Positions 3,278 through 34,588 of a stretch of DNA of 41,138 nt are shown one piece after another. The DNA lies in NCBI GenBank assembly GCA_937941765.1, contig CALDGQ010000022.1, positions 1-41,138 of the forward strand. Reading direction: 5' to 3'. Numbering within the stretch: the stretch's first letter is position 1; each line of letters opens with the position of its first letter. Under the pieces are notes generated by a model, which searched no databases, had not been told where the DNA came from, and saw only the letters and a list, made by a program, of their open reading frames with translations. Made by a program: the position numbers and the translations under genes. The DNA is from an uncultured Saprospiraceae bacterium (GTDB lineage Bacteria > Bacteroidota > Bacteroidia > Chitinophagales > Saprospiraceae).

Positions 3278-3291
3278 ATCTACTTCTGAAA

Positions 3292-3825
3292 TTATGGTAT
3301 TGGTTTTTCTTCAATTTTAATGTAAATATGAACGGTTGCATTTACTGGCATCATCACTTCTGAGTTTTGGTCTAAAGTAAGGATTTTATAGCCAGATGCA
3401 GTATCCTCAACGGTCTTTCCACTATTCAATTTAAAATAAACTGCTGGTGATATTGATGAAGAAATTTGTATATCAATTATATTATATTTTGTACAATCTT
3501 GAAAAATATAAAATGGTATACCAGTACTTTTCCAAATTACGCCCATTGGACATACTGGCGGCGGCCATGGTCCTTTATATCCAGATGTATCTGGTTCAGG
3601 GACTTTTTTTGCAATCCATTTAATTGAATCATTGTAGATGGAATTGATTTCAGAACTTACTGGTGTATCGCCAATGACCGTCATAATAACAGGTACATTA
3701 TTAGGAAAAAAAAATTCAGCAAGATACTCAGATATGAAATGTCCCCAAAAAGGACTTTTACCCATATTATTTTCCATGTGTGTGAATTTCTTCAATTTGT
3801 CTTCAAATGGTGCTCCCATAATCAA
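3292..3825 (-). CDS. Hypothetical protein of 177 aa, with no recognisable motif; its stop is 14 bp before the start of the CHAT gene on the same strand
   Basis: Intact ORF on the same strand as the CHAT gene and tightly linked to it. No signal peptide and no known catalytic motif seen. Confidence 0.45.
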   Translation of the reverse strand: MIMGAPFEDKLKKFTHMENNMGKSPFWGHFISEYLAEFFFPNNVPVIMTVIGDTPVSSEINSIYNDSIKWIAKKVPEPDTSGYKGPWPPPVCPMGVIWKSTGIPFYIFQDCTKYNIIDIQISSSISPAVYFKLNSGKTVEDTASGYKILTLDQNSEVMMPVNATVHIYIKIEEKPIP

Positions 3826-4138: not shown

Positions 4139-5059
4139 TTAGGCATCCTTTTTATCATAGATCAAAAACTGATAGGTTTCCTGAAAAGCATAAAACACCT
4201 CAGCAAATGATTTCGCTTCTTTATAAAATGGGCAAGGATCATTTCCAAGTTGGTGCATAGATAAAAAGTCAACTAATTTATCCAAAGCATATTTCCGCAC
4301 ATCATTGATCGCTCGGTCTTTCTCAAAACGAAGGATGTTGTAAAACTCAGACATCGCATTTTCTATCAAAACCGCATTTCTTTCCCAAATCCACATAAAT
4401 TGAATATTGTTGCGGTCATAAGCTTTATTCCTCTTTTCAATTGGATCTTTTAAATGAATCGCATCCGTCATTACATTTTTACGTCGTTGATTGATTAATC
4501 CTGAAACGAAATACGGGAAATGATTGTTATATAATGTTTGATTTGATAACTTTGAAATAGTGTCTGGATAATCAAACCCATTAAAAACAGAAACTTTTTC
4601 TTGTAAAAATCGATCTGCCCAAATTTCATCTTTAAAAGATTGAGGACGTAACTCAGGTAAAATAAAATAGATCAATACTTCAGAATAAATGGAAGCTTCA
4701 ATCTCATTGTTCTTCATTTTTTCCATCCATGAGAAAAAATCGAAATCGCCCAAATGAAAAGGGAAGTATTTCAAGGTATTGCGATGATACAGCTCGTGAA
4801 AATAATATAAATCAGACTGCACCGGATTGTCATAATGTCGATAAGGAATGGCATTAAACCACGCCGAAAAATGCGGCCGTTCTATTTTGTAATCAGTATA
4901 CTGGAAAAAGATAATAGGGTAGTCACTTACTTTTTGACAAAATTTATAGATAAAAGAATAGCTATCTTTCATCGCATTTTTAAATGGTTCTGATTTCCAT
5001 AATTTATGCAAATGATCCATTACTTTTTTCCTTTCAACTATCAATTCTAGTTGCTCCAT
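4139..5059 (-). CDS. Hypothetical protein of 306 aa containing an HExxH-like motif (FHELYH); possible metal-dependent enzyme
   Basis: ORF overlaps the upstream gene by 13 nt, which suggests translational coupling. The HELYH motif was read from the translation. No other domain recognised. Confidence 0.5.
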   Translation of the reverse strand: MEQLELIVERKKVMDHLHKLWKSEPFKNAMKDSYSFIYKFCQKVSDYPIIFFQYTDYKIERPHFSAWFNAIPYRHYDNPVQSDLYYFHELYHRNTLKYFPFHLGDFDFFSWMEKMKNNEIEASIYSEVLIYFILPELRPQSFKDEIWADRFLQEKVSVFNGFDYPDTISKLSNQTLYNNHFPYFVSGLINQRRKNVMTDAIHLKDPIEKRNKAYDRNNIQFMWIWERNAVLIENAMSEFYNILRFEKDRAINDVRKYALDKLVDFLSMHQLGNDPCPFYKEAKSFAEVFYAFQETYQFLIYDKKDA

Positions 5060-6120
5060 CGCTCCATCAAATTTTCATAGTGAGAAAATAAATCAGCATC
5101 ACTTTTATTGTTGACAATTTTATCAATTTGTGGACTCATTACAAAACGATTAACACCTGCTCTTTCCAAATCATTGAATTCACTATCTATATGTTTTCGA
5201 TATCCTAATAAGAATACATCACTTGGGACTACCTTATGATTGGCTTCAGCATTTATTTCCTTATTTAATAATGCTAATGATTGTTCTTGTGCTTCTTGAT
5301 AAACTAAGCGTTTCTCCGATTCTGGAAAAGCATCCAACAATAAATTTGCTAATTGAAAAGAAGGCGCATTTTTAAACCACATTAAATTTCCAATTAATCC
5401 GGGTAATTCCATTTTTGAAAGGATACCACCAATTCTATCATAAAAACAGCCACCAAAACTTTTGCTAAAACTAAAAAAGATTCCTTTTACAGAAGTATGA
5501 TTAAGGTTTACTTGTTGAACTTTATAAGTGGTTCCATGATATGCGAAGTCCAACCAAACTTGGAGTTTTTTCTCATCAGCAAAATTCAAAAATACTTCTA
5601 AATCTTTCCAATAATTCCCATCAATTGCCGAAGGTTCGCTGATGATGACCAACTGTTTTTCCATTACGTCCTTTAAGTCTTCTTCAAAATGATTTCGATC
5701 AAATGCAGTCACTGGAATTTTTGCATCTGCAGCATAATGGTAATATCCTTCATACTCACCTTTCATCAAACACATGCCGCTTCCTTTTGAAATTAGGTCC
5801 CTACAATTATTTCCAAAATGCTGAATTACATATCGAAATCCTTCACTGGATCCAGATGTCGGATACACATTTGAATACTGATCTAAATGAGAAACACCGG
5901 ATGATAACCAAGCTCTTATTTTTTCAAAGAATGAAATATGACTGAGATCTTGTGCTTTAAGGTAACTGTGACGACCAATTTGAATAGCAGCTTCTGAATT
6001 GGTATAAAACTGAGTTTTTATTTTTTCGACGGGTTGCCATTGCGGGACATAGACACCTTTGCAGAGACCTAATTTAAGTAATTCGATGTCTCTTTCACTA
6101 AGGGTTTTTGTGTAATTCAT
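5047..6120 (-). CDS. PLP-dependent aminotransferase class I/II fold protein (divergent)
   Basis: SFSKSFGGCFYDRIGG matches the SxSKxxGxxGxRxG Schiff-base lysine motif of class I aminotransferases. ISEPSAIDG resembles the PxNPxG motif, and LDFAYHG is a D/E-AY-like motif. Confidence 0.6.
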   Translation of the reverse strand: MNYTKTLSERDIELLKLGLCKGVYVPQWQPVEKIKTQFYTNSEAAIQIGRHSYLKAQDLSHISFFEKIRAWLSSGVSHLDQYSNVYPTSGSSEGFRYVIQHFGNNCRDLISKGSGMCLMKGEYEGYYHYAADAKIPVTAFDRNHFEEDLKDVMEKQLVIISEPSAIDGNYWKDLEVFLNFADEKKLQVWLDFAYHGTTYKVQQVNLNHTSVKGIFFSFSKSFGGCFYDRIGGILSKMELPGLIGNLMWFKNAPSFQLANLLLDAFPESEKRLVYQEAQEQSLALLNKEINAEANHKVVPSDVFLLGYRKHIDSEFNDLERAGVNRFVMSPQIDKIVNNKSDADLFSHYENLMERWSN

Positions 6121-6382
6121 ATGGTGGAAAATTGTAGTGTAATTTATGATTTAATTGGTTGGTAGGCAAGTGATGAGATGCACGCTTGTTTCGTTGGATC
6201 CATTTGATTATCCGCCGATGCCAGATAGTTCCTTCCTTGGCAGGAAGGACAATGCGTGAACTCGCCAGACTGTGCAAATATGCTTTCGGAAACTGAACCG
6301 CAGAATATCCAACCGTAGAATATCGAATGTCGAAGTAGAGTACGTGGACAAATAAGCATGAAATTCGTTAATATACGCTGCA

Positions 6383-6410
6383 CCCTTCCTTTTCAAAGAA
6401 GGGCCTTTTT
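6383..6410 (+). terminator. Candidate intrinsic terminator or attenuator hairpin (cccttc-N9-gaaggg followed by ccTTTTTgcTTTgc) in the leader upstream of the sensor kinase
   Basis: 6-bp GC-rich stem followed by a T-run on the + strand only. No + strand CDS lies upstream of it, so it may end a small RNA or act as a leader attenuator. Confidence 0.35.
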
Positions 6411-6547
6411 GCTTTGCATATTAGAGGATGGATCAACCCACCCGAACAAACCAAATATCCAACCGATAGTCCGATGACATTTGCCAAACTATAATCTTTT
6501 TGGTATCATTACATAGGATCATTTTTTTACAGCTTGAAGATGCTAGG

Positions 6548-9500
6548 ATGTTAAGAGGAAAAAATCTATGCTCGATCTGTTTTGCACTCTTTCTGACCAT
6601 TTCTCTGGTCGCACAGCAAAATCAAAACGACCTCATCGTTCATAAAACACCATTGTTTGAATCGGATAACAATTGGGGATTGTCGACTCGCTTTATCAAA
6701 GATTTATTTACGGACAAAGATGGGATTATTTGGATAGCCTCTTCTAAAGGGTTGATTAAATATGATGGAACCAATGCTACTGTTTTTGATAGTAGTGTCA
6801 ACAATCCATATCGCATCCATTCTGATGATATCAGAAAAGCATTTGAAATGAAAAATGGGGATTTGATTTTATATTCATTTCGATCTGGTTTGCAATTGGA
6901 GTTATTGAAAAAGGGAGCGATGCAATCTTCTAAAATTGAATTGTCGGCTAATGACAAAAAGATTGACGGCTTTTTAGCAGATGTGAGCATTTCAAAAGAT
7001 GGCGTTATCTATGCTGCTTTCAATACTGGAAAATCCATTTTGATTTATAAGCTGATTGAACATCAGTTAGAATTTTTTAGAGCTTTTAATTTTGACGCCT
7101 CCATTTTAGGAAAGAAAATAAGTATCGCACCTTATGATCGTTCGGTATGGATAGCAGTTGAGGGATTAGGCGTTTTTGAGCACTTTAATCGACAAATTAA
7201 AGTGTTAGATTTTACAACTCTTAGTGAAAGTAAATCGATTTTTCCGAATTCATTTTTTGAAGATAATCTTGGTAATTTTTGGCTTTGTTTGGAAGAATTA
7301 CAGGATAATGTTTTCAAATGGGATGGAAAAGCTTTTGAAAAATTTGAGACCCCAATTAAAGAAGAAGTTGCGCAAATTATAGAGTCAGCAAGTGGACAAT
7401 TACTTTTTGTAGCTGGTAAATATCCGGATGCTATAACCAGTACATTTGCTTTGATTGATGGAGAATGGATTGATTATACGAGTTATTTAGAAACAGGTTA
7501 TGTTAGTTTATTTCCTTCCAATGATTTGAGTAAATCATTTTTTGTTCGCACTAAAAATAATGTACTTAACATTAGTTTTACAAATAATAAAATTACCAAC
7601 TATTTGAATCAGTCATTGACCAATAATCAATGGGGTAACATTATTATGGGGGTTAACGAGGATCTTTATGGAAATATTTATTTTATTGCGGAAAGTGATA
7701 ATTTTTACAAACTTGAAAAGGAAAGTAAAGAACTAACAAGAATTCCAATCATTGAATCAAATGGGGAAGAGCTTCAATTTGGTTGCGGAATGGCGATTCA
7801 CAGAGATAGCAAAGGGCAATTGTGGTTTGTCGCCTGTGATCGGGAACGTCGTGGTATCTTGATTAATTACAATCCTGGATCTAATAAGTTTAATTTCGTT
7901 TTTCATAAACATTTGATTAGAGGGATTCACATTGATGAAAATGATGTAATCTGGACGGTCCATAATAATGAACAAGTAGAAGTAGGTGTATTGACTTCTT
8001 ACAATATCGCTACCAAAGAAATTACCGACATTCCATTATCAGCTGCTTTTGTAGAGCCGCGTTTTTGCTATTCCAACAATATAGATTCTACCTTGTGGAT
8101 TGGGACGATGAAAGGACTCATTTCAGTCAATAAAACGACTTATGAAATGAAAACCTATAATGTAGAAAATAGTTTTTTGAAAAGTGATCGGATTATTTCA
8201 ATGTTAGATCATGACGGCAATAAATTGTTGACAGGTACATTTGGAGATGGATTACAAATTATTGATTTTGAAAACAAAAATGCAACCTTAATTGGGAAAG
8301 AAGCAGGGTTGTCAAATAATTTTGTTTGCGGAATCATTCCAATTGACAAAAGTAATTATTGGTTGAGTACTTTTAATGGATTGAGTTTTTGCAATATTGA
8401 AGATAAGACGGTTATCGAATATGGAGAAGCAAATGGGTTTGCACATTATGAATTTAATCGCCATGCCTATTTTCAAGCTAGTGATAGTACGAATTATTTA
8501 GGATCTGTCAATGGAGCAAGTTCTTTTTTAACAAAAGACTTACTACCTGAAAAATCGAATGCTTCAATTGGAATTTCTTCTATTAAAAAATATTATGGTA
8601 AAAAAGATACGATAGAAGTACTGAAAGGAAGTCATGAAAATTTCGATCAAATCGTATTATCTCCAGATGTTACTTATCTAGAAATAGATTTTTTTCAAAC
8701 AAATTTTAATGGTTCTCAACAACCTAAATTGTATACTCGGCTGACACCTTATGATGATAATTGGGAATATGCTGGAGAACATAAAAGGGTACGATATCGA
8801 TTGCTTCCACCAGGTACATACGATCTTGAAGTTAAGAATCAATTTAGCACTCAAATAAAAAAACTTAAGATTATTTCTGAAACACCGTTTTACAAACAAA
8901 TCTGGTTTCCAATCGCTGTAGTTTTAGGAAGTGCATTGTTTTTTTATGGTTTATATAGAAATAGAATTAAGAAAGTAAAGGCAGAAGACAAGGCGAATCA
9001 GGAGATTAATAAAAAATTTGCTGCACTCGAATTACAAGCATTACAATCTCAATTGAACCCTCATTTTATTTTCAATGCATTAGGTGCTATCCAATATGCG
9101 ATTCGTGAAAATGATAATCAACGTGCAGAACATTTCTTGACCAGTTTTGCTTCTTTGATGCGTTTGTTTTTAGAGTCTTCTAAAAAGAAACATATTTCTG
9201 TTGCGGAAGAGATTGAACTGATAAGTAAATATGTAGAGTTAGAGCAACTACGTTTCAATAATCGGTTTGATTTTGAATTTAATATCGATGAAAAAATAGA
9301 TATTTACAACACAGAGATTCCGTCTTTACTTTTTCAGCCGTTTGTAGAAAATGCAATAAATCATGGGTTATTTCACAAAAAAAATCAAGGTCTTTTGCAA
9401 ATTAATATTCAGATTGAAGATGACAAGTCCTTACATTGTATCATCGAAGATAATGGGATTGGACGTGTTAAATCTGCTGAAATAAAGAAAAGATCTATCA

Positions 9501-9646
9501 ATAATCATGTATCCAGGTCGACTCAAATTGTAAACGAAAGAATTGAAATTTTACAAAAAGTAGAAGACTTAGATTTGAATATTGAAATTCAAGATTTACT
9601 AGAAGGTACAAGAGTTGTGTTGGATATACCAATACAGTCTGATTAA
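6548..9646 (+). CDS. Sensor histidine kinase, LytS/YehU-type (His_kinase + HATPase_c), with a large periplasmic two-component-regulator beta-propeller (Y_Y_Y-like) sensor region
   Basis: The start was chosen at the in-frame ATG at 6548 (MLRGKNLCSICFALFLTISLVAQQ, a signal-peptide-like sequence) rather than the ORF-track start at 6500. The propeller region is ~780 aa, rich in W/G/Y, and followed by a TM helix (IWFPIAVVLGSALFFYGLY). It is followed by the LytS-family H-box QLNPHFIFNALGAIQ and a GHKL ATPase region (ENAINHG…DNGIG). Confidence 0.85.
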   Translation: MLRGKNLCSICFALFLTISLVAQQNQNDLIVHKTPLFESDNNWGLSTRFIKDLFTDKDGIIWIASSKGLIKYDGTNATVFDSSVNNPYRIHSDDIRKAFEMKNGDLILYSFRSGLQLELLKKGAMQSSKIELSANDKKIDGFLADVSISKDGVIYAAFNTGKSILIYKLIEHQLEFFRAFNFDASILGKKISIAPYDRSVWIAVEGLGVFEHFNRQIKVLDFTTLSESKSIFPNSFFEDNLGNFWLCLEELQDNVFKWDGKAFEKFETPIKEEVAQIIESASGQLLFVAGKYPDAITSTFALIDGEWIDYTSYLETGYVSLFPSNDLSKSFFVRTKNNVLNISFTNNKITNYLNQSLTNNQWGNIIMGVNEDLYGNIYFIAESDNFYKLEKESKELTRIPIIESNGEELQFGCGMAIHRDSKGQLWFVACDRERRGILINYNPGSNKFNFVFHKHLIRGIHIDENDVIWTVHNNEQVEVGVLTSYNIATKEITDIPLSAAFVEPRFCYSNNIDSTLWIGTMKGLISVNKTTYEMKTYNVENSFLKSDRIISMLDHDGNKLLTGTFGDGLQIIDFENKNATLIGKEAGLSNNFVCGIIPIDKSNYWLSTFNGLSFCNIEDKTVIEYGEANGFAHYEFNRHAYFQASDSTNYLGSVNGASSFLTKDLLPEKSNASIGISSIKKYYGKKDTIEVLKGSHENFDQIVLSPDVTYLEIDFFQTNFNGSQQPKLYTRLTPYDDNWEYAGEHKRVRYRLLPPGTYDLEVKNQFSTQIKKLKIISETPFYKQIWFPIAVVLGSALFFYGLYRNRIKKVKAEDKANQEINKKFAALELQALQSQLNPHFIFNALGAIQYAIRENDNQRAEHFLTSFASLMRLFLESSKKKHISVAEEIELISKYVELEQLRFNNRFDFEFNIDEKIDIYNTEIPSLLFQPFVENAINHGLFHKKNQGLLQINIQIEDDKSLHCIIEDNGIGRVKSAEIKKRSINNHVSRSTQIVNERIEILQKVEDLDLNIEIQDLLEGTRVVLDIPIQSD

Positions 9647-9667
9647 ATTTTGATGTATAATGTTAAG

Positions 9668-9862
9668 ATGTATGATTTATGATATGACCGTTGTTGCGTC
9701 AGGCTGTGCGAAAATTCCCAAGAGCAAAGAGGTTAGAAACCTTTTGCTCGAATACCGTGTGTGTTACGAGATGAAGGTTTCTAACCTCTCATCTCCTACG
9801 AGTATTTTCGCACAGTCTGGCGTGTGCATACAAATCGGCTGTCATATCATACATCATACATT
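9668..9862. repeat. About 195 bp of extended imperfect palindrome with three nested inverted repeats, occupying the kinase-regulator intergenic space
   Basis: Outer arms: atgtatgatttatgatatgaccg (9668-9690) against cggctgtcatatcatacatcatacat (9837-9862). Middle arms: ggctgtgcgaaaat (9702-9715) against attttcgcacagtc (9804-9817). Inner arms: gaggttagaaacctt (9729-9743) against aaggtttctaacctc (9774-9788), a perfect 15-mer. The 69-aa ORF 9660-9869 lies inside this structure and is probably spurious. Confidence 0.55.
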
Positions 9863-9926
9863 CAAATGAACGAAGTGATTTAGAAAAAAATCATACACCC
9901 ATTACTTAACTACAGAAAACAATAAA

Positions 9927-10670
9927 ATGATCAAAACATTATTGGTCGATGATGAATTACTTTCGATTGAAAACTTGAAGGAAAGTATAATATCTAATTT
10001 TCCGAATTTAGAAATCGTAGGGACTGCTCAAAATGCAGATGAGGCGTTTGATTTAATAAATACCTTAAAACCGGAATTGGTTTTTCTGGATATTGCCATG
10101 CCTGGAGCAAGCGGATTTGATTTGTTACGAAAATTACCTGAATTAGAATTTGAGGTAATATTCGTTACCGCATTTGACCAATATGCAATGGATGCCATCA
10201 AATTTTGTGCAATCGGTTATGTACTGAAGCCTATCAATAAGGAAGAGCTTTTACATGCCGTTCATCGAGCTGTTAAATCTATTGGCCAAAAAAACGAGTT
10301 TAATAGAAACGTACAATTATTGGAGAATTTGGTCAATCCTGGCAATCAAAACAATCGTATTGGTATTCCAAGTCCTGATGGATTAGAGTTTGTGTCTATT
10401 CACGAAATTATCCGGTGTGAAGGAGTGCAACGATACACCAAAGTGTTATTTAAAGATCGAAAGGAACTTCTAAGTTCTTATAATTTAGGAGAGTTTCGTC
10501 GGTTGCTTGAAAACTATGGGTTTTATTCCGTTCACAAATCCCACCTTGTTAATTTGAATCATGTCAAACGTTATGATAAGGAAGGATTTGTGCAAATGAC
10601 TGATAATTTTAATGTTCCAGTTGCACGCAGAAAGCGACAAGATTTTATGCAATTTTTGACAAGGATTTAG
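9927..10670 (+). CDS. LytTR-family response regulator (CheY-like receiver plus LytTR DNA-binding domain)
   Basis: Receiver motifs (LLVDDE…, phospho-acceptor region LVFLDIAMPG, …KP) and a C-terminal LytTR domain (IRCEGVQRYTKV…YSVHKSHLVNLNHV). It sits immediately downstream of the LytS-type kinase. Confidence 0.9.
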   Translation: MIKTLLVDDELLSIENLKESIISNFPNLEIVGTAQNADEAFDLINTLKPELVFLDIAMPGASGFDLLRKLPELEFEVIFVTAFDQYAMDAIKFCAIGYVLKPINKEELLHAVHRAVKSIGQKNEFNRNVQLLENLVNPGNQNNRIGIPSPDGLEFVSIHEIIRCEGVQRYTKVLFKDRKELLSSYNLGEFRRLLENYGFYSVHKSHLVNLNHVKRYDKEGFVQMTDNFNVPVARRKRQDFMQFLTRI

Positions 10671-11039: not shown

Positions 11040-12056
11040 TCAACTTAGTGTACCCAAATAATCTTCCATTAAACTTTTTGATATTTTATAGGCATCCGTA
11101 ATCTGCAATTGGAATACCTGATCCAGCTGAAGATCGTTGTCTGTCAGCTCAATATTATTTTTTAATTTATAAAGTGTGTTTAAACTTTTCGAAAAATGAT
11201 GACCTCTCAAATATTTGAAATATAAATAATTACCACGCTCATTGATTAAGGCATGATATGGTGCATTTTCCATCTGATTCAAATCTATATCTTGAACCTC
11301 ATTAATTTTAACAATTGAATTTCGTTTGCCTTCTATTAATTGGTCACAATTTTCAGTAAGACTAAAAACAACTTCGGGTGTTGGTTTGATCTTGAAGTGG
11401 ATGCTGTTAGATTCCTTTTGATTAATTTTTAATACAGCAAAAGAAACTTCGTGAGAATCATTATCCAATGCCACGAAAATAGTTTTTCGATGAGCACACA
11501 ATTTGCGATCATAATGACCCGTAAAAATATACCGTGTGGGAATATCAAATAATCTAATTCTTCTTTTCAGTTGTGCATGAGCCAAAACAATATCGTACGG
11601 TTCCTGATTTGCTTCAATCAACGTTTTTAGTTTCTTCTTGAATTTGGAACAACTGTAAGGAATACCTAAAATGCTTAAACCACCAATCTCGACTTTTTTA
11701 TTATTAATATCTTGCGAATACTGTAAGCTTTCCGAAAATGCAACAACTTGATTGTAATACTTCGGATCGTCATGATTTCCACTTATAAACAGCGACGGAA
11801 TTTTCTTTCTTTCCAAAAAGGTGAGTAGTAAATTGAAGGCATGATGAAAACCATGACCACATGAACCATCACCAGTGATATCACCTGCAAATAAAACTAG
11901 GTCTGCTCGTTCATCTTCTACAATTTGGAGATACCGATAAATTCTTTGATAACGAGGAATGGAAATACGGGAAGGATCAAAAGAAAGCACTTCACTTTCG
12001 GTCATCGACCTTAGGTGAGATTCCCAATTTAAATCGCTCAATACAAGAATATTCAT
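11040..12056 (-). CDS. Calcineurin-like metallophosphoesterase with a ~120-aa C-terminal extension of unknown function
   Basis: Metallophosphoesterase motifs in order: ILVLSDLNWESH (D/H), LVLFAGDITGDG (GDxxD), FISGNHDD (GNH[DE]), VLAHAQL, FTGHYDRK (GH). Confidence 0.8.
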   Translation of the reverse strand: MNILVLSDLNWESHLRSMTESEVLSFDPSRISIPRYQRIYRYLQIVEDERADLVLFAGDITGDGSCGHGFHHAFNLLLTFLERKKIPSLFISGNHDDPKYYNQVVAFSESLQYSQDINNKKVEIGGLSILGIPYSCSKFKKKLKTLIEANQEPYDIVLAHAQLKRRIRLFDIPTRYIFTGHYDRKLCAHRKTIFVALDNDSHEVSFAVLKINQKESNSIHFKIKPTPEVVFSLTENCDQLIEGKRNSIVKINEVQDIDLNQMENAPYHALINERGNYLYFKYLRGHHFSKSLNTLYKLKNNIELTDNDLQLDQVFQLQITDAYKISKSLMEDYLGTLS

Positions 12057-12114
12057 TGTTAAATATTATCGTATTGAGCGATTAAATGGGTAAATGTTTT
12101 TGAGAAAATAATCA

Positions 12115-12216
12115 CTAAGATTTGTTCTTCTTTGCACGCTTTTCAGCTCTTTTTTCTTTAAGTGTTTTAGTTGCTTCTTTTTTTACATTTTTTTGTGAGT
12201 CTTTTCCTTTAGCCAT
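12115..12216 (-). CDS. Possible 33-aa highly basic micro-protein (MAKGKDSQKNVKKEATKTLKEKRAEKRAKKNKS)
   Basis: Hand translation of the minus strand: ATG at 12216 and TAG at 12115-12117, on the same strand as and between the AOS-fusion gene and the phosphoesterase gene. It is below the ORF-track length threshold. There is no homology evidence. Confidence 0.25.
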   Translation of the reverse strand: MAKGKDSQKNVKKEATKTLKEKRAEKRAKKNKS

Positions 12217-12329
12217 GTCTTAATATTTTAAAATTATAAATGTGTTTAGAATCAAATATACGTTTGATGATTGAAGTTTGCAAATCACACGATAAATAAA
12301 TGGTTATTGCCATTTTCACTGCCATTGCA

Positions 12330-14753
12330 TCAAACCTTGGTCGAAGTCATCGAAGCAATAACTTCCATATTGAAATGATCCTTTATCTGTACATAAGCAA
12401 CTCGACTTTCTTGCGTGGCACCAAACTTTCGTTTTGTTTCTTCGGCAGTAAATCCCCAATAGATTTTTTCAAAATTCAACTCCATACCTCGAATCATTAA
12501 TCGATATAGCATTTGTTTATAAATCTCATGCGATTCATTGTATTTATAATCCATGCCGGCTAGCATTGGACAATAATTTTTGGCAGATTTATAACAACAA
12601 GCCACTGCAATAGGAGTTGATTCGTCTTTTTTGTCAAAGATATACATGAATTCCCAGTTGGGATTTTCTGACATAGTATCTAAATAACTGATTGGATAGT
12701 CGAATAAATTTACAGCTAAATTGTTCTTTTTAACATTTTGAAATAATTTGTAAACTTGTTGTTTCAAACTAGCAGTGATTTTGTCGACGAATTGAACCGA
12801 CAGCTCATCTTTATAAGCAAGTACTTCATTTTTTAGTTTCCTTCTTCGTTTTGCTGAAACCGTACTAAGATATTCTTCGAAATTTGCCCAAGACAAATGT
12901 ACAATGTTGGTATCTGGAAGATTTATTTTCAAAAATCCTTCTTCTAAAAGGTAAGTATGAAATGCTTCATCACTTGCATTCAAGTCTCTGAACATAACGC
13001 CATTCACATTTAAGGTGTCAGCAAGGTTTTCTATTTCATTAAAAAATACTCTTAAAACTTGTTTCCAATCAGAACGATTTTTGTCCAAAAACAAATGATC
13101 TCCTTCAGTTAAAAAAGAGCCCATCATCAATTTATAGGAAGTTAAATAATAGGGTTCTTTTTCTCTTCTTTGTTCTATTTGAAATGAAATGCTTTCTGGT
13201 TCAAACATATCGTCTTTATGTATACCGTGTGTTAGAAAAGTACACAATATCGGAGCTCTTGATGTTTTATCACGGATAAGGATGTAATGGAAAGAAAAGT
13301 TATTTTCCTTTTTGTCATTTCCAGAAAAAATGGTTTGTTGAGTGATCATGCCATTGTAATCAAAGCAACCTCTATCAGCCAATAATTGATCCCATTCTTC
13401 CTTTTTTACATCCGCAATGTCTGTGTAATATTCCAGAACATAATTTCCAATTACTTTTACAGTTGCTGATAATTTTGATTTTACCGTTTCTTTTTCAATT
13501 AATTTAAAAGCTTTACGAATCTCTTTATTTGTTCTATTTTCAGATTCCAAAACTTTAGGAAAATGATGAACGAGGGTCTCGACGAATGCTTTGATATCAT
13601 CTTTAGATTGGTGTCGTGTAATCGTAAATCTTAATCCAGTATTTTTAATTGGCACCGCTGGGAAAACGCCTATTGATGAATAGAATCCACTAGCCATTAC
13701 TCGACGGACCATTTCATAACCGGTTTTAGGTTGTCCCATTCCCAGAAAATAAATAGGTGTAATAGGATCTGAAATAATAGGCAAGTCAGTTTTTTCTAAC
13801 AACTTGTTTGTATAATCTAATTTTTCTTGTAATTCATTTTGTAAAGTATAAATTTCTTCAGATAAACAAATTTCTGTCATTGCTAGTGCAGCCCCAATTG
13901 TTGCTGGAGGTAGCGGATGAGAATAGGTGAGTGGTCCACCAAAAGAACGTACCTTCTTGTAAATTTTTTCGTTTGGAAAAACCAATACACCACCGACAGC
14001 ACCAAATCCTTTTGCTAAAGTAGTACTTAAAATAATCCGCTCATTAATTCCAAAAACGTCGAATGCATACCCCGTTCCATTTTTTCCATACCACGCCATC
14101 CCATGTGCATCATCAATATAGATATGAAGTCGAGGATATTTTTGCATCATCATTTTGATGTCATCAAACGGAGCGACGTCTCCATACATAGAATAAACCC
14201 CATCGACGAGGTACCATACTTTGTCGTATTTTTCACCGCACTTTTTTAAAGTATGCTCAAGCATATCCATGTTATTGTGGCGGATCATGGTGATTTCTGC
14301 ACCTTTTTGACGCGCAACTTGAGCACCTGTTTGTACACTCATATGCACTTGCTGGTCCAAGATGATCATATCTTTGTAAGAAACCAAAGTAGGAATTGCA
14401 GATATATGTGAAATGGATGTACTTGACTGGACGATGGCAGGATGACCAAACATCGCCCCAATTTGTTCTTCCAATTGACCATTGATTTGACTGGTCATGT
14501 AAGTACGTGAAATGGAAAACTGAGTCCCATATTTTCGAGTAAACTCAATTGATTTTTCGATTAATTTCGGATGAAACTCAATACCGAGATAACCGCAAGT
14601 GCCAAAATTAATTAAGTTTTGACCTTTGACTAGAAGTTCGTTTCCTGAGTAGCCTTCTTTGTCTGTTTCTAAAAAAGTAAGTCCTCTGTTTTTGGCATCT
14701 GTTGTAATATCTGAGATAAGGTCAAGGTGATTGTTGTGGTTGATTTTAGCCAT
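12330..14753 (-). CDS. Fusion protein: N-terminal alpha-oxoamine synthase family PLP enzyme (BioF/KBL/serine-palmitoyltransferase-like) plus a C-terminal BioF2/FemAB-like GNAT acyltransferase domain
   Basis: AOS motifs: FGTCGYLG, IDDAHGMAWYG (DxxH), and the PLP lysine in STTLAKGFGAVGG. The C-terminal ~400 aa is non-PLP and resembles the 'BioF2-like' Acetyltransf_6 family that is often fused or adjacent to BioF homologues. Length is 807 aa. Confidence 0.85.
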   Translation of the reverse strand: MAKINHNNHLDLISDITTDAKNRGLTFLETDKEGYSGNELLVKGQNLINFGTCGYLGIEFHPKLIEKSIEFTRKYGTQFSISRTYMTSQINGQLEEQIGAMFGHPAIVQSSTSISHISAIPTLVSYKDMIILDQQVHMSVQTGAQVARQKGAEITMIRHNNMDMLEHTLKKCGEKYDKVWYLVDGVYSMYGDVAPFDDIKMMMQKYPRLHIYIDDAHGMAWYGKNGTGYAFDVFGINERIILSTTLAKGFGAVGGVLVFPNEKIYKKVRSFGGPLTYSHPLPPATIGAALAMTEICLSEEIYTLQNELQEKLDYTNKLLEKTDLPIISDPITPIYFLGMGQPKTGYEMVRRVMASGFYSSIGVFPAVPIKNTGLRFTITRHQSKDDIKAFVETLVHHFPKVLESENRTNKEIRKAFKLIEKETVKSKLSATVKVIGNYVLEYYTDIADVKKEEWDQLLADRGCFDYNGMITQQTIFSGNDKKENNFSFHYILIRDKTSRAPILCTFLTHGIHKDDMFEPESISFQIEQRREKEPYYLTSYKLMMGSFLTEGDHLFLDKNRSDWKQVLRVFFNEIENLADTLNVNGVMFRDLNASDEAFHTYLLEEGFLKINLPDTNIVHLSWANFEEYLSTVSAKRRRKLKNEVLAYKDELSVQFVDKITASLKQQVYKLFQNVKKNNLAVNLFDYPISYLDTMSENPNWEFMYIFDKKDESTPIAVACCYKSAKNYCPMLAGMDYKYNESHEIYKQMLYRLMIRGMELNFEKIYWGFTAEETKRKFGATQESRVAYVQIKDHFNMEVIASMTSTKV

Positions 14754-15184
14754 ACCAGTTAGTTTTGGAACATTAATAATTAAGGTGTCTATCTTTCAAT
14801 AAACAAAAGAGTGGTGTCTTATAACCTCCGTTAAATCCGACTTAAATAAATAGATGGCTTTGTACAACCGTGTCAGATTGTACTTTAATGTGCAAGTGTT
14901 ATAAAACGGGGTCGGTTTTATATTGTTAGGTGAAAAGTAGTTCGCCTTCTTCTACTATTTTCTCAAATGTTTATTGTTCTATTCTAGAATAAATATAGAC
15001 AAAAATATTTTTGCTACTTCATTTTCGTCCAAAATATTTTTAGTAAATTTTATCCCTTGAAAGAATTATATCTTGAAGTTGTATCTATCTTGCTTATTGA
15101 ATTTGGAATAATTTTAAAATTCGACCAGCAGGATTGTAACTTCTTGATTAATTGATTCGTCCTTTTAAAAAATGATCAACCAAG

Positions 15185-31449: not shown

Positions 31450-32361
31450 ATGAACAACATTACAACGCAAAAGGCTGTACAGGCGTGTCTATCTTATTTT
31501 GACATATTTCAGCATCCGCTGAAAAAAGAAGAAATCGCCAACTTTTTAAGCATCTCTTGTGAGGCTAGGGAACTGGATACTGCAATTTCAGATTTAAAAG
31601 ATGCTAATTTAATTTTCAATATAAATGATTATTATTCGTTACATAACAATATAAATCTTGTTATAGATCGAATAGCTTTTGAAAAAAGAGCGGATGAAAA
31701 GATGAAAGAGGCATTGCATTATGGACAGTTGATTCAAAAATTTCCTTTTACAAAAGCAGTTTGCATTTCAGGAAGTTTGTCCAAGCATATCATGAAAAAA
31801 GATTCTGATATTGATTTCTTTATCATGGCAAAAGCGAATCGAATATGGATAGCAAAATTGTTGTTGAAAATGTACAAATTTCTGTTTCTTAATAATTCTA
31901 AGGACGTCTTTTGTATCAATTATTTTATTGCTGAAAATAATCTTTCGATTGCAGAACAGAATACTTTTACGGCAACAGAGTTGGTTACATTGATTCCGAT
32001 TGGATGTCAGGTTGAATATGAAAAGATATTGAAGCAAAATAAATGGTACAAGGAATTTCTTCCTAATTATACCAATGTTTCCAAAGAATCTTTTCCAATA
32101 ACAGCTAAAGAAAAACCATATGTTTCCAAATTATTGGAAATGCTATTTTCAGGAAAATGGGGTAATTTTATAGATACTAGAATTATGAAATTGCATGCAA
32201 TGAGAAATAGAAAAAAATACGCGAAGTTAAAAAACAATAAAGACTTTGAATTAATGCTTAGAGCTACCAAGAATCAGATAAAAGTACATCCACCTAATTC
32301 TCAAAACGTAACTTTAGCTAAATACAAAAGTCTTATCAACAATCTCGATAACAGTTACTAG
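31450..32361 (+). CDS. Pol-beta-superfamily nucleotidyltransferase-fold protein (303 aa); first gene of the B12-rSAM operon
   Basis: The motif ISGSLSKHIMKKDSDIDFFIM fits the minimal nucleotidyltransferase signature hG[GS]-x(9-13)-Dh[DE]h. Its stop is 2 bp before the GTG start of the next gene. Confidence 0.55.
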   Translation: MNNITTQKAVQACLSYFDIFQHPLKKEEIANFLSISCEARELDTAISDLKDANLIFNINDYYSLHNNINLVIDRIAFEKRADEKMKEALHYGQLIQKFPFTKAVCISGSLSKHIMKKDSDIDFFIMAKANRIWIAKLLLKMYKFLFLNNSKDVFCINYFIAENNLSIAEQNTFTATELVTLIPIGCQVEYEKILKQNKWYKEFLPNYTNVSKESFPITAKEKPYVSKLLEMLFSGKWGNFIDTRIMKLHAMRNRKKYAKLKNNKDFELMLRATKNQIKVHPPNSQNVTLAKYKSLINNLDNSY

Positions 32362-32363
32362 AA

Positions 32364-33818: not shown

Positions 33819-34588
33819 AAAAAGCAACCTTTGACATAGAAGCAAGTAACTACGATCAGCATTTTACAGATACTAAAATCGGTCGCATCCAAAGAAATCG
33901 GGTATGGAAATACATGCGCAAACTATTGGCTGGTAAAAAGCAACTCAAAATATTGGAATTGAATTGTGGTACCGGCGAAGATGCTGCTTTTTTTGCTGAA
34001 AAAGGACATATGGTTTTAGCAACGGATCTATCTCCCAAAATGCTAGAGGTCGCAAATCGAAAAATTTGGAATAAGGGATTGAAATATAATGTCCAAACAC
34101 AAACGCTTGACCTCAGAAATCCCAAATTGAAAAGAGGTGAAATGTATGATGTGATTTTTTCAAATTTTGGAGGATTAAATTGTATTTCCAAAACAGAATT
34201 GGATCAATTGTCAGATGTGCTTTCTAAACATCTACTTCCTAAAGGGAGTTGTGTTTTTGTTGTTATGCCGAAAAATACTATTGTAGAAAAATGGTTTAGA
34301 AAGTATAAGAACCAATCAGATATTTTTCACAAAAGAAACGCGCAAATTCCGCTTAAAGTCAATGTTAGTGGAGAATTGATTAGCACTTATTTTCATTCTG
34401 ATGATGACCTAAAATCATCATTTTATAAGTTTCAACACATTGTAACAAAGCCAATTGGATTTATTCCTTCTTATTTTGAACATTCTAATCGATATTTTTT
34501 GCTAAATATTTTTGATAAAATAGCAACGATCCTAAAATTTAATGCGAACACAGCTGACCATTATTTGATTCATTTTCAAAAGAAATAA
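33815..34588 (+). CDS. Class I SAM-dependent methyltransferase
   Basis: Motif I ILELNCGTGEDAAFF (GxGxG-like) and motif II/post-I acidic residue (LATDLS). ATGA overlap with the upstream rSAM gene and TAATG overlap with the downstream gene. Confidence 0.8.
   Translation: MKKATFDIEASNYDQHFTDTKIGRIQRNRVWKYMRKLLAGKKQLKILELNCGTGEDAAFFAEKGHMVLATDLSPKMLEVANRKIWNKGLKYNVQTQTLDLRNPKLKRGEMYDVIFSNFGGLNCISKTELDQLSDVLSKHLLPKGSCVFVVMPKNTIVEKWFRKYKNQSDIFHKRNAQIPLKVNVSGELISTYFHSDDDLKSSFYKFQHIVTKPIGFIPSYFEHSNRYFLLNIFDKIATILKFNANTADHYLIHFQKK

What the first reader, a model, noticed from the sequence alone, without database searches (positions are those of the whole stretch)
11040..14753. BioF-like alpha-oxoamine synthase fused to a BioF2/FemAB-like GNAT acyltransferase, co-oriented with a 33-aa basic micro-ORF and a calcineurin-like phosphoesterase
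The 807-aa protein combines a complete AOS-family PLP enzyme (the Claisen-condensing family that makes 8-amino-7-oxononanoate, sphinganine precursors and the capnine/sulfonolipid backbone) with a ~400-aa acyltransferase-like C-terminal domain in a single chain. In Bacteroidota, AOS homologues make sphingolipids and sulfonolipids. A fused N-acyltransferase would allow condensation and N-acylation by one polypeptide, which suggests an unusual amino-lipid or acylated amino-ketone product. On the same strand and immediately downstream lie a tiny, highly basic predicted peptide and a metallophosphoesterase with an uncharacterised C-terminal extension. This is consistent with a three-gene lipid or metabolite module, but co-transcription is inferred from orientation only.
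Basis: partly seen in the sequence, partly recalled or inferred. Interest (0 to 1): 0.6.

Follow-up and report, generated by a model that had tools for sequence, protein, structure and literature searches.

The report
Fused aminoketone synthase and N-acyltransferase
One 807-residue Bacteroidota protein joins a PLP enzyme that makes amino-ketones to a FemX-like transferase that probably caps the new amine; it belongs to a large, catalogued but untested family that in most genomes lies beside sensor and regulator genes, not beside the two small genes proposed as its partners here.

Summary
Window 12330-14753(-) encodes an 807-aa protein. Its N-terminal half is a catalytically intact alpha-oxoamine synthase (AOS). 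Its C-terminal half is a confidently modelled tandem-GNAT domain closest to Fem-type transferases. The 33-aa ORF and the metallophosphoesterase are real genes.

The fusion is not a one-off. More than 1,350 full-length Bacteroidota homologues exist, and NCBI names one of them 'bifunctional aminotransferase.../GNAT'. I found no functional study. It does not reach the curated cut-offs for BioF, Bacteroidota serine palmitoyltransferase (SPT), KBL or CqsA/LqsA.

The three-gene module is not supported. The trio occurs only in four close relatives. The micro-ORF has its own conserved promoter-like block and belongs to a widespread peptide family found elsewhere without the fusion. Metallophosphoesterase homologues at 47-52% identity lie elsewhere.

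Family-wide, the partners are DUF7793 proteins (STAS-like, 1-8 copies, 29 of 31 genome loci) and one soluble HAMP-like/PAS kinase or AraC regulator (27 of 37 loci). No lipid-pathway family was prominent.

Best reading: a two-step synthase of an N-acylated or N-aminoacylated alpha-aminoketone that more likely serves signalling than bulk lipid synthesis. The window's lineage lacks these partners within 41 kb. Product and acyl donor are unknown.

The parts
12330..14753 (-). Gene for the 807-aa bifunctional protein (alpha-oxoamine synthase plus tandem-GNAT transferase); the stop codon is 12330-12332
   Evidence: ORF. More than 1,350 full-length homologues at 43-81% identity. 359 clusters at 50% identity match the C-terminal profile at E<=1e-30. 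Full-length model pLDDT 88.1.
13542..14753 (-). AOS (PLP, fold-type I) domain, residues 1-404. The catalytic set H137, S188, D214, H217, T245 and K248 (PLP lysine in the TLAKGFG motif) and R375 is invariant in the family.
   Evidence: Pfam and NCBIfam hits. Invariant columns. Residue-by-residue alignment to Alb29. Foldseek TM 0.84-0.87 to Alb29, BioF, KBL and SPT.
13464..13541 (-). Inter-domain linker, residues 405-430, low confidence in the models
   Evidence: pLDDT below 50 at residues 422-427 of the full-length model and 18-24 of the domain model. pTM 0.55 means the relative placement of the two domains is not reliable.
12333..13463 (-). Tandem-GNAT (Fem-like) transferase domain, residues 431-807. 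Invariant residues include N485, D515, S523, R530, H553, D590, W700, E701, Y745, K774 and K776 (motif KRKxGA).
14900..14998 (-). Conserved blocks in the 431-bp region upstream of the fusion gene: CTATATTTA (14990-14998, a possible -7 box) and the palindrome TATAAAAC-N7-GTTTTATA (14900-14922)
   Evidence: Alignment of W, L035 and L002 upstream regions, in which the rest of the spacer has diverged. Sequence. No function was tested. No Rfam match.
12253..12284 (-). Promoter-like block in front of the micro-ORF: TTTG (12284-12281), a 20-nt spacer, then TATATTTG (12260-12253). It starts 46 nt after the fusion's stop codon.
   Evidence: Sequence. The block GTGATTTGCAAAC.TCA.TC.TCAAACGTATATTTG is almost invariant in W, L002 and L035, while the DNA just after the fusion's stop codon is not. 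The match to the Bacteroidota -33/-7 consensus (TTTG / TAnnTTTG) rests on my own knowledge.
12115..12216 (-). 33-aa lysine-rich micro-ORF (MAKGKDSQKNVKKEATKTLKEKRAEKRAKKNKS). It is a real, independently distributed tiny gene, not a specific partner of the fusion.
   Evidence: Conserved in L002, L035 and L086, with synonymous changes outnumbering non-synonymous ones. 43 metagenome loci carry 32-37-aa relatives (two more are cut by a contig end) without a fusion or phosphoesterase homologue in the DNA fetched. Their neighbours vary.
11040..12056 (-). Metallophosphoesterase (338 aa) with a family-conserved C-terminal extension. It is linked to the fusion only in the window's close clade.
   Evidence: Metallophos E 2.8e-11. 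146 homologues, nearly all full-length. It neighbours the fusion in L002, L035 and L086, but not in L037, L038 or L087 and not in the other fusion loci.
6500..10670 (+). Context only: a propeller/Y_Y_Y sensor histidine kinase (6500-9646) and a LytTR response regulator (9927-10670), convergent with the phosphoesterase
   Evidence: Pfam. The pair is syntenic in L035 and L086 but absent from L002. It lacks the HAMP-like module shared by regulators next to the fusion in other lineages. A functional link is not shown.

Best explanation
The 807-aa protein is a soluble two-step enzyme.

Step 1 is supported by homology, with every catalytic residue present. The N-terminal PLP domain performs the decarboxylative Claisen condensation typical of alpha-oxoamine synthases (AOS): an amino acid plus an acyl-thioester gives an alpha-aminoketone.

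Step 2 is inferred from the fold and from the fusion being obligatory across the family. The C-terminal Fem-like tandem-GNAT domain transfers an acyl or aminoacyl group onto the new amine. This yields a stable N-substituted alpha-aminoketone instead of a free aminoketone, which would self-condense. The amino acid, the chain length and the donor (acyl-CoA/ACP or aminoacyl-tRNA) are unknown.

The role is inferred from gene neighbourhoods in relatives. The product is more likely a signal or a tightly regulated specialised metabolite than a bulk membrane lipid. Across the family the gene is paired with cytoplasmic DUF7793 (STAS/SpoIIAA-like) proteins and with one soluble HAMP-like/PAS regulator whose output varies (histidine kinase or AraC).

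The window's lineage has the synthase without those partners nearby. Its adjacency to the 33-aa gene and the phosphoesterase is shared with close relatives only. That adjacency is not a functional module.
For: AOS domain:
- Pfam and NCBIfam hits.
- H137, S188, D214, H217, T245, K248 and R375 are invariant in 36-117 homologues. They align with the Alb29 motifs.
- Foldseek TM about 0.86 to solved AOS enzymes.

Second domain:
- Sbb17 shows that this fold can aminoacylate a small-molecule amine (entry title).

Fusion conserved as a unit:
- More than 1,350 homologues of about 800 aa. 359 clusters at 50% identity at E<=1e-30, with the match at residues about 405-810. Both halves carry many invariant residues.

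Not a member of the named AOS families:
- All NCBIfam scores are far below cut-off.

Context:
- DUF7793 occurs in 29 of 31 genome loci, in 1-8 copies.
- In a census of 150 nearest neighbours, DUF7793 scored 42, Response_reg 11, HTH_18 11, HATPase_c 10, RteC 8 and PAS 6. None of the 25 most frequent families is a lipid-pathway family.
- Operon-like strings DUF7793-fusion-DUF7793-HK-RR are seen in L033 and L034.
- The neighbouring kinases have no transmembrane segment.
- One regulator with a shared HAMP-like N-terminal module occurs in 27 of 37 loci, on both kinase and AraC outputs.
- Look-ups started from DUF7793 lead back to the fusion in L083 and L085.
- One genome has two paralogous systems (L023 and L027, 55% identity).

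Against the trio being a module.
Against: - No product, substrate or activity has been measured for any family member that I could find.
- The signalling role rests only on gene neighbourhoods in relatives.
- The window, L001, L002, L035 and L086 carry neither DUF7793 nor the HAMP-like regulator near the gene, so the inference may not transfer to this lineage.
- Bacteroidota sphingolipid genes are known to be scattered (PMC11334938). Absence of lipid genes nearby is therefore weak evidence against a lipid product.
- L001 has a fatty-acid hydroxylase next to the gene.
- Fold similarity cannot decide the donor.
- The inter-domain arrangement is not reliably modelled (pTM 0.55), so substrate channelling is conjecture.
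Confidence: 0.45

Rival explanations
1. Spt-bCerS-type fusion for a membrane lipid. The AOS half condenses serine, or cysteate or another amino acid, with a long-chain acyl-ACP/CoA. The GNAT half N-acylates the 3-keto long-chain base. The product is a 3-keto-dihydroceramide-like (or sulfonolipid-like) structural lipid. This follows the order reported for bacterial ceramide synthesis: Spt, then ceramide synthase, then reductase.
For: - Sphingobacterium SPT is among the best solved sequence matches (116 bits).
- Bacterial ceramide synthase is an N-acyltransferase, and one reported route acylates 3-ketosphinganine before reduction (PMC11324152; PMC10865984).
- A fusion would suit that order.
- L001 has a fatty-acid hydroxylase next to the gene.
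- Sphingolipid genes in Bacteroidota need not cluster (PMC11334938).
Against: - The Bacteroidota (CFB-group) SPT model scores 162 bits against a cut-off of 640. Solved cysteate acyltransferases score lower than BioF or SPT.
- No reductase, ACP, acyl-ACP synthetase or glycosyltransferase family is among the 25 most frequent families in 150 neighbours.
- The gene sits with regulators, next to RteC in 8 loci, and in one case among conjugative-transfer, Fic and AbiEii genes.
- One genome has two divergent paralogues.
- The relation of the C-terminal domain to bCerS could not be tested, because no reference sequence was available.
Confidence: 0.22
2. Aminoacyl-tRNA route to a pyrazinone-type signal. 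The Fem-like domain uses an aminoacyl-tRNA, as FemX, FemA and Sbb17 do, to aminoacylate the aminoketone. The N-aminoacyl-aminoketone cyclises to a dihydropyrazinone or pyrazinone. DUF7793 and the HAMP-like/PAS regulators then sense that product.
For: - By my reading of the sequence, the second GNAT lobe has no Q/RxxGxG/A pyrophosphate loop and ends in a KRKxGA motif that is invariant in the family.
- The regulatory context is as described for the best explanation.
- That N-aminoacyl-aminoketones cyclise to pyrazinones, and that such compounds act as bacterial signals, rests on my own knowledge.
Against: - Identity to the Fem proteins is only 8-13%, and there is no sequence-level hit to them.
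- The Pfam families involved may also include CoA-dependent members (my own knowledge), so the fold does not fix the donor.
- No tRNA-binding feature was tested.
Confidence: 0.15
3. One reading: the fusion, the 33-aa basic peptide and the phosphoesterase form one co-transcribed three-gene lipid or metabolite module.
For: - The three genes share a strand with short gaps of 113 and 58 bp.
- The trio is kept in W, L035, L086 and L002, although both flanks differ in L002.
- No intrinsic terminator was predicted between the genes.
Against: - All four carriers are close relatives: the three with full-length fusions are 77-81% identical to the window protein and L086 is cut by the contig end. At 61% identity (L001) the trio is gone.
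- A conserved promoter-like block lies between the fusion and the micro-ORF.
- The micro-ORF family occurs in 43 other contigs without either neighbour.
- Phosphoesterase homologues at 47-52% identity lie elsewhere.
- None of the other fusion loci has the phosphoesterase.
Confidence: 0.06
4. A housekeeping BioF (8-amino-7-oxononanoate synthase) with an accessory domain.
For: JGI names the family 'KAPA synthetase-like'. BioF structures are among the Foldseek hits.
Against: - TIGR00858 scores 177.5 bits against a cut-off of 426.
- No Pfam family typical of biotin synthesis was found in the window ORFs scanned.
- BioF, KBL, SPT and Alb29 all match about equally well.
- The analogous two-domain M. 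tuberculosis BioF2 does not complement a bioF mutant (PMC12910592).
Confidence: 0.02

Closest known systems
Bacterial serine palmitoyltransferase plus bacterial ceramide synthase (Spt + bCerS; Caulobacter CC_1162 + CC_1154/CCNA_01212; B. fragilis CerS BF9343_4218)
   Same: An AOS condensation is followed by N-acylation of the amino-ketone or amine (PMC11324152, PMC10865984). This is the same chemical logic as proposed here.
   Different: - There the two activities are separate proteins, clustered in Caulobacter with ACP, acyl-ACP synthetase and reductase genes.
- Here one chain carries both activities. The SPT models are far below cut-off (162 bits against 640) and the neighbours are regulators.
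- Homology of the C-terminal domain to bCerS could not be tested.
CqsA/LqsA alpha-hydroxyketone autoinducer synthases
   Same: They are AOS-family enzymes whose aminoketone-derived products are signals, and they are encoded next to their sensor kinases (my own knowledge). In relatives, the fusion lies in operon-like strings with kinases and response regulators.
   Different: - The model NF005526 scores 93 bits against a cut-off of 428.
- CqsA and LqsA have no fused transferase, and their sensors are membrane kinases (my own knowledge).
- Here the kinases are soluble HAMP-like/PAS proteins, and DUF7793 proteins are extra partners.
- The window itself has none of these partners.
Mycobacterium tuberculosis BioF2 (Rv0032)
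   Same: It has an AOS domain plus an extra domain in one chain. It does not complement a bioF mutant, and its function is unknown (PMC12910592). That its extra domain is the 'BioF2-like' acetyltransferase type (Pfam Acetyltransf_6) rests on my own knowledge.
   Different: - The domain order is reversed: the extra domain is N-terminal.
- It is restricted to the M. tuberculosis complex.
- I made no direct sequence comparison.
Fem-family aminoacyl-tRNA transferases (FemX 6snr and 4ii9, FemA 1lrz, Sbb17 9wqx)
   Different: - Identity is 8-13%, with no sequence-level match.
- Their acceptors are peptidoglycan precursors or streptothrisamine.
- They are stand-alone proteins.
- The donor used here is unknown.
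Alb29 (alpha-oxoamine synthase crystallised with L-glutamate; 8xha, 8xhk, 8i7u)
   Same: It is the closest solved AOS by both sequence (118 bits) and structure (E 1.3e-31, TM 0.86). It shares the SxSRxxMT and LxKGFGAxGG motifs.
   Different: Identity is only 26%, and BioF, KBL, ThAOS and SPT follow within about three orders of magnitude of E-value. The match says nothing firm about substrate. Alb29 has no fused transferase.

Membership tests
Alpha-oxoamine synthase (AOS) superfamily (PLP fold-type I) | PLP-binding lysine, with the stacking His, the Asp/His pair and the C-terminal Arg | tested here: met
   K248 (TLAKGFG), H137, S188, D214/H217 (DDAHG), T245 and R375 are invariant in the family. 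They align to the Alb29 motifs.
Alpha-oxoamine synthase (AOS) superfamily (PLP fold-type I) | AOS fold | tested here: met
   Foldseek TM 0.84-0.87 (normalised to the target) to Alb29, BioF, KBL, ThAOS and SPT, with E 1e-28 to 1e-31.
BioF (8-amino-7-oxononanoate synthase, TIGR00858) | Score at or above the curated equivalog cut-off | tested here: not met
   177.5 bits against a cut-off of 426.45.
BioF (8-amino-7-oxononanoate synthase, TIGR00858) | Biotin-operon context | tested here: not met
   No Pfam family typical of biotin synthesis in the window ORFs scanned. Only 41 kb is visible.
Bacteroidota (CFB-group) serine palmitoyltransferase (NF047600) | Score at or above the curated equivalog cut-off | tested here: not met
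   162 bits against a cut-off of 640. The beta- and alpha-proteobacterial SPT models score 157 against 500 and 117.5 against 670.
KBL / ALAS / CqsA-LqsA | Score at or above the curated cut-offs | tested here: not met
   KBL 149.6 against 460, ALAS 127 against 338.55, and the alpha-hydroxyketone autoinducer synthase model 93.4 against 428.
PRK07505 subfamily (uncharacterised AOS) | Score at or above the curated cut-off | tested here: not met
   This is the best-scoring model, at 261.8 bits, but it is below the cut-off of 342. No paper mentions the model.
Fem-type tandem-GNAT transferases | Two GNAT lobes in the Fem arrangement | tested here: met
Fem-type tandem-GNAT transferases | Pfam FemAB_like (PF04339) or Acetyltransf_6 (PF13480) at the gathering score | tested here: inconclusive
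   The window protein scores 22.7 against 27 and 16.4 against 22. Many homologues carry precomputed PF13480 or PF04339 hits.
Fem-type tandem-GNAT transferases | Aminoacyl-tRNA as donor | not testable with these tools
   This needs an enzyme assay. Fold alone cannot distinguish aminoacyl-tRNA from acyl-CoA or acyl-ACP.
Bacterial ceramide synthase (bCerS) | Sequence or profile homology to CCNA_01212 or BF9343_4218 | not testable with these tools
   No reference sequence could be obtained. The key paper (PMC8891067) is not held and the AFDB library was unavailable. NCBIfam gave no match on the C-terminal half at E<=0.1.
NCBI-named family 'bifunctional aminotransferase class I/II-fold PLP-dependent enzyme/GNAT family N-acetyltransferase' | Full-length collinear homology over both domains | tested here: met
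   47% identity at 100% coverage to P0013 (WP_302209218.1), which carries that name.
DUF7793-linked system seen in most relatives | DUF7793 gene(s) adjacent to the fusion | tested here: not met
   A family HMM finds no copy in the 41-kb window, L001 or L002, against 1-8 copies in the 29 other genome loci. DUF7793 is also absent from the called genes of L035 and L086.
DUF7793-linked system seen in most relatives | One soluble regulator with the shared HAMP-like N-terminal module | tested here: not met
   The HMM finds such a regulator in 27 of 37 loci, but not in W, L001, L002 or L035. The window's kinase is a propeller/Y_Y_Y type.
Anti-phage defence systems (PADLOC) | Match to a defence-protein model | tested here: not met
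   No hit for the fusion or for DUF7793. The phosphoesterase has a weak PDC-S10 match.

The most novel reading that the evidence does not exclude
The fusion is the synthase of an unrecognised Bacteroidota signalling system. It makes an N-acyl or N-aminoacyl alpha-aminoketone, the latter possibly cyclising to a pyrazinone. Cytoplasmic STAS-like DUF7793 proteins, often in arrays of up to eight paralogues, perceive that product. A dedicated soluble HAMP-like/PAS module, grafted onto histidine-kinase or AraC outputs, relays the signal. The system is sometimes carried near mobile-element genes. The window's lineage would then be a producer without the usual partners nearby, or one that uses a different receptor.
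Probability: 0.3. Interest if true: 0.85.

Novelty: new variant of a known kind. Interest (0 to 1): 0.55.

Why it matters
AOS enzymes start the synthesis of sphingolipids and sulfonolipids. They also make the CqsA/LqsA quorum-sensing signals.

A family with 359 clusters at 50% identity (E<=1e-30) ties such an enzyme covalently to a Fem-like transferase across Bacteroidota. That family has no assigned product.

If the product is a lipid, this would be a single-protein route to an N-acylated keto-base. If it is a signal, the DUF7793 and HAMP-like/PAS partners would define a chemical communication or sensing system in a phylum where I know of few such systems.

The chemistry can be tested directly, because culturable carriers exist: Flavobacterium sp. 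ZB4P13 and JP2137, Aureibaculum luteum SM1352 and Paenimyroides baculatum SNL9. The result might also give a lead for the unexplained M. tuberculosis BioF2.

For the window itself the practical outcome is a corrected annotation. It holds one bifunctional enzyme gene plus two unrelated neighbours, not a three-gene module.

Tried and rejected
- **Literature.** Ten full-text searches found no paper on the Bacteroidota fusion, DUF7793 or PRK07505. The key bacterial ceramide synthesis paper (PMC8891067) is not held, so I could not obtain a bCerS reference.
- **AFDB fold search.** The library was unavailable.
- **Stand-alone relatives of the C-terminal domain.** The exhaustive profile search returned only fusions and fragments in the top 150. 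The PDB sequence search with the profile found nothing at E<=10.
- **Defence-system reading.** PADLOC found nothing for the fusion or DUF7793.
- **Riboswitch or known RNA near the genes.** Rfam gave only chance-level hits.
- **DUF7793 arrays as RiPP precursors.** Rejected. The copies are conserved over their full length with no hypervariable tail.
- **A second fusion paralogue in L007.** Rejected. It is a stand-alone 414-aa AOS at 22% identity.
- **Phosphoesterase C-terminal extension as a hidden DUF7793.** Rejected. The DUF7793 HMM finds nothing in the window at E<=1.
- **Micro-ORF homologue search.** A strict DNA pattern found nothing. A codon-degenerate pattern found 43 loci.
- **Sigma-70 promoter and terminator scan.** Counts were at chance level and uninformative for Bacteroidota.
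- **Inter-domain geometry and channelling.** The full-length model has pTM 0.55, so I drew no conclusion.

Full report
**1. What is in the sequence**

For the 807-aa protein, the N-terminal half is well supported:
- Pfam places Aminotran_1_2 on residues 48-378 with E 1.4e-22.
- Eleven NCBIfam models of alpha-oxoamine synthase (AOS) families align over residues about 10-400.

The C-terminal half gives only sub-threshold Pfam hits:
- FemAB_like scores 22.7 bits against a cut-off of 27.
- Acetyltransf_6 scores 16.4 bits against a cut-off of 22.

I therefore modelled residues 405-807 with an alignment of 22 homologues. The model has pLDDT 88.5 and pTM 0.85.

A profile of the domain has no sequence-level match in the PDB even at E<=10.

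**2. The AOS half is intact but belongs to no named subfamily**

The residues that define AOS catalysis are invariant in alignments of 36 and 117 homologues, and they align with the motifs of Alb29. They are H137, S188, D214, H217, T245, the PLP lysine K248 (TLAKGFG) and R375.

Every curated model falls far below its cut-off:

| Model | Score (bits) | Cut-off (bits) |
|---|---|---|
| PRK07505 'hypothetical protein' | 262 | 342 |
| bioF | 177 | 426 |
| Bacteroidota (CFB-group) SPT | 162 | 640 |
| KBL | 150 | 460 |
| ALAS | 127 | 339 |
| Alpha-hydroxyketone autoinducer synthase | 93 | 428 |

By structure, the closest solved enzyme is Alb29, which was crystallised with L-glutamate (26% identity, E 1.3e-31). 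BioF, ThAOS, KBL and SPT follow within about three orders of magnitude. The amino-acid substrate therefore cannot be read off.

The window ORFs scanned show no family typical of biotin or sphingolipid synthesis.

**3. The fusion is a large, conserved, catalogued family**

- The protein search returned 1,353 homologues. The 120 listed are nearly all about 800 aa at 96-100% coverage, and every one that a source assigns to an organism is from Bacteroidota.
- The C-terminal profile finds 359 clusters at 50% identity with E<=1e-30. The match lies at residues about 405-810 of proteins of about 800 aa.
- NCBI names one member 'bifunctional aminotransferase class I/II-fold pyridoxal phosphate-dependent enzyme/GNAT...' (WP_302209218.1).
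- JGI calls the family 'KAPA synthetase-like enzyme/predicted N-acyltransferase'.
- Carriers include Flavobacterium, Aureibaculum, Myroides and Paenimyroides isolates and many MAGs. The nearest relative is a Saprospiraceae MAG at 77%.
- I found no experimental paper in ten searches.
- The best-known analogue is M. tuberculosis BioF2 (Rv0032). It has an AOS domain plus an extra N-terminal domain, does not complement a bioF mutant, and is still of unknown function (PMC12910592).

**4. The proposed three-gene module does not hold**

Distribution of the trio:
- The phosphoesterase follows the fusion only in the window's close clade: L002 (fusion 77% identical), L035 (81%) and L086, which is cut by the contig end.
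- At 61% identity (L001) the downstream gene is a convergent fatty-acid hydroxylase, and there is no micro-ORF.
- None of the other fusion loci has the phosphoesterase.

The phosphoesterase:
- Its family is small, with 146 homologues, nearly all with the C-terminal extension.
- Its members at 47-52% identity sit in unrelated neighbourhoods.

The micro-ORF is a real gene:
- Synonymous codon changes outnumber non-synonymous ones (8:4, 9:4 and 7:2).
- It is preceded by an almost invariant block, GTGATTTGCAAAC.TCA.TC.TCAAACGTATATTTG.
- That block reads TTTG, a 20-nt spacer, then TATATTTG (12284-12253).
- From my own knowledge, this fits the Bacteroidota -33/-7 promoter consensus.
- The DNA just after the fusion's stop codon is not conserved.

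The micro-ORF is also independent of the fusion:
- A codon-degenerate pattern found 43 metagenome contigs with relatives reading MAKGKDxxKNVKKE... Intact copies are 32-37 aa.
- tblastn finds no fusion or phosphoesterase homologue in any of those loci.
- Their neighbours vary.

The trio is thus adjacency shared by close relatives. In its favour, it survives in L002 although both flanks differ there. This is weak evidence.

**5. What travels with the fusion family-wide**

I clustered the neighbours in 30 fusion loci from the genome collection.

DUF7793:
- One family of about 130 aa lies next to the fusion in 29 of 31 genome loci, in 1-8 copies. It is usually immediately upstream and divergent.
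- It is Pfam DUF7793, with a weak SpoIIAA-like (STAS-like) match.
- The copies are globular and conserved over their full length, so they are not precursor peptides.

Census of the 150 nearest neighbours in 27 loci:

| Pfam family | Members |
|---|---|
| DUF7793 | 42 |
| Response_reg | 11 |
| HTH_18 (AraC) | 11 |
| HATPase_c | 10 |
| RteC | 8 |
| MauE | 8 |
| PAS_9 | 6 |

None of the 25 most frequent families is a lipid-pathway family, such as an ACP, an acyl-ACP or acyl-CoA synthetase, a reductase or a glycosyltransferase.

Gene order and regulators:
- In Crocinitomicaceae the order is DUF7793, fusion, DUF7793, HisKA_3 kinase, GerE response regulator. All are on one strand, with overlapping ends.
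- The neighbouring kinases have no transmembrane segment.
- The kinases share an N-terminal module of about 70 aa (..GDF..RL....DE....GINML.EEL..), followed by a PAS domain.
- The same module heads the AraC regulators of the Flavobacteriaceae loci, where it gives a weak HAMP match.
- An HMM of the module finds exactly one such regulator in 27 of 37 loci.

Further checks:
- Look-ups started from DUF7793 lead back to the fusion (L083, L085). In L085 the fusion is split into a 540-aa AOS gene and a 271-aa Acetyltransf_6 gene.
- Paenimyroides tangerinum has two paralogous systems at 55% identity.
- One copy lies among conjugative-transfer, Fic and AbiEii genes.

**6. The window's lineage is the exception**

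- The DUF7793 HMM finds nothing in the 41-kb window, L001 or L002.
- The HAMP-like module is absent from W, L001, L002 and L035.
- The neighbouring two-component pair (6500-10670) is a propeller/Y_Y_Y kinase with a LytTR regulator. It is syntenic only in L035 and L086.
- The fusion itself keeps every invariant residue of both domains, since P0001 is the reference row. It is therefore presumably active.
- The upstream spacer holds two blocks conserved among the three close relatives: CTATATTTA, and the palindrome TATAAAAC-N7-GTTTTATA (14900-14922). Their function is unknown.
- There is no Rfam match in the region.

**7. Mechanism**

- Shown by homology: step 1 is a PLP-dependent decarboxylative Claisen condensation that gives an alpha-aminoketone.
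- Inferred from the fold and from the conserved fusion: the Fem-like domain transfers an acyl or aminoacyl group to that amine.
- From my own knowledge of aminoketone chemistry: free alpha-aminoketones dimerise to dihydropyrazines. This gives a rationale for fusing the capping enzyme to the synthase.
- Not resolved: the donor.
  - The four best structural matches all use aminoacyl-tRNA.
  - By my reading of the sequence, the second lobe lacks the GNAT pyrophosphate loop.
  - The Pfam families involved may also include CoA-dependent members (my own knowledge).
- Not resolved: inter-domain packing (pTM 0.55).
- Inferred from context only: the role is signalling or a regulated specialised metabolite, rather than a bulk lipid.
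- The lipid alternative, an Spt-bCerS-like fusion, stays alive:
  - Bacteroidota sphingolipid genes are scattered (PMC11334938).
  - I could not compare the C-terminal domain with bCerS.

**8. Verdict**

The gene is a member of a catalogued but functionally uncharacterised bifunctional family. The proposed partners are neighbours only in close relatives.

The family-wide link to DUF7793 and to HAMP-like/PAS regulators is what deserves follow-up. I found no description of that link in any paper I could search.

Noticed in passing
L003-L031, L033, L034, L036, L083-L085 (e.g. L012:4597-7849, L003:5459-7910): Tandem arrays of up to eight DUF7793 (STAS/SpoIIAA-like, about 130 aa) paralogues lie next to the fusion gene, mostly divergent from it. 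No paper mentions DUF7793.
   Followed up: yes
L003:10444-11670, L033:12782-13951, L020:10926-12440, L024:6511-7416 and 23 more loci: A shared HAMP-like N-terminal module of about 70 aa (..GDF..RL....DE....GINML.EEL..) heads soluble PAS histidine kinases, a hybrid kinase and AraC regulators next to the fusion. There is exactly one such regulator per locus, in 27 of 37 loci.
   Followed up: partly
window 12115-12216(-); L040-L082: The 33-aa lysine-rich peptide belongs to a widespread and highly conserved family (MAKGKDxxKNVKKE...; intact copies 32-37 aa) found in 43 metagenome contigs with varied neighbours, for example a 399-aa ORF upstream in 8 of them. Its function is unknown.
   Followed up: partly
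window 14900-14998(-): The long 5' region of the fusion gene holds conserved elements shared with L035 and L002: CTATATTTA, and the palindrome TATAAAAC-N7-GTTTTATA. These could be an operator or a leader hairpin.
   Followed up: partly
L085:4505-6964: In one metagenome contig the fusion is called as two genes: a 540-aa gene with Aminotran_1_2 and a 271-aa gene with Acetyltransf_6. This is either a frameshift or a genuine split.
   Followed up: no
L032 (CP120683.1, 7.17-Mb chromosome); L019, L023-L027, L029, L030: Some copies lie near mobile-element genes. L032 has T4SS coupling-protein (TraG-type) domains, DUF5712, HTH_17, Fic and AbiEii genes nearby. Eight Flavobacteriaceae-type loci have an RteC gene immediately downstream, and some also a MauE-domain protein.
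   Followed up: partly
L001:4593-5606(-): In the 61%-identical relative, a fatty-acid hydroxylase gene lies convergent, 50 bp after the fusion. This is the only lipid-type neighbour I saw.
   Followed up: no
window 4139-6120(-): A 357-aa protein with a weak Aminotran_1_2 match (E 2.2e-7) overlaps by 13 bp a 306-aa protein with no Pfam match. This looks like a second, unrelated gene pair containing a PLP-type enzyme.
   Followed up: no
window 31450-35976(+): A tight same-strand string: a 303-aa protein with a weak nucleotidyltransferase (Polbeta) match, a radical-SAM enzyme with a weak B12-binding match, a methyltransferase, and a B12-binding radical-SAM enzyme. It may be a small modification or biosynthetic cluster.
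   Followed up: no
window 314-3825(-): A 987-aa TPR-CHAT protein and a 177-aa protein with no Pfam match are syntenic with L002. There they lie directly after the phosphoesterase, which shows that the 4139-10670 segment differs between W and L002.
   Followed up: partly
window 36285-38219(+): A 644-aa protein combines multihaem cytochrome c motifs (paired CXXCH, cytochrome c7/c554-like) with C-terminal TPR repeats.
   Followed up: no
window 14736-14753(-), residues 1-6: The extreme N-terminus of the fusion (MAKINH..) is at least 90% conserved across the family at M1, A2, K3 and H6. This is unusual for a soluble enzyme, and both models give these residues low confidence.
   Followed up: no
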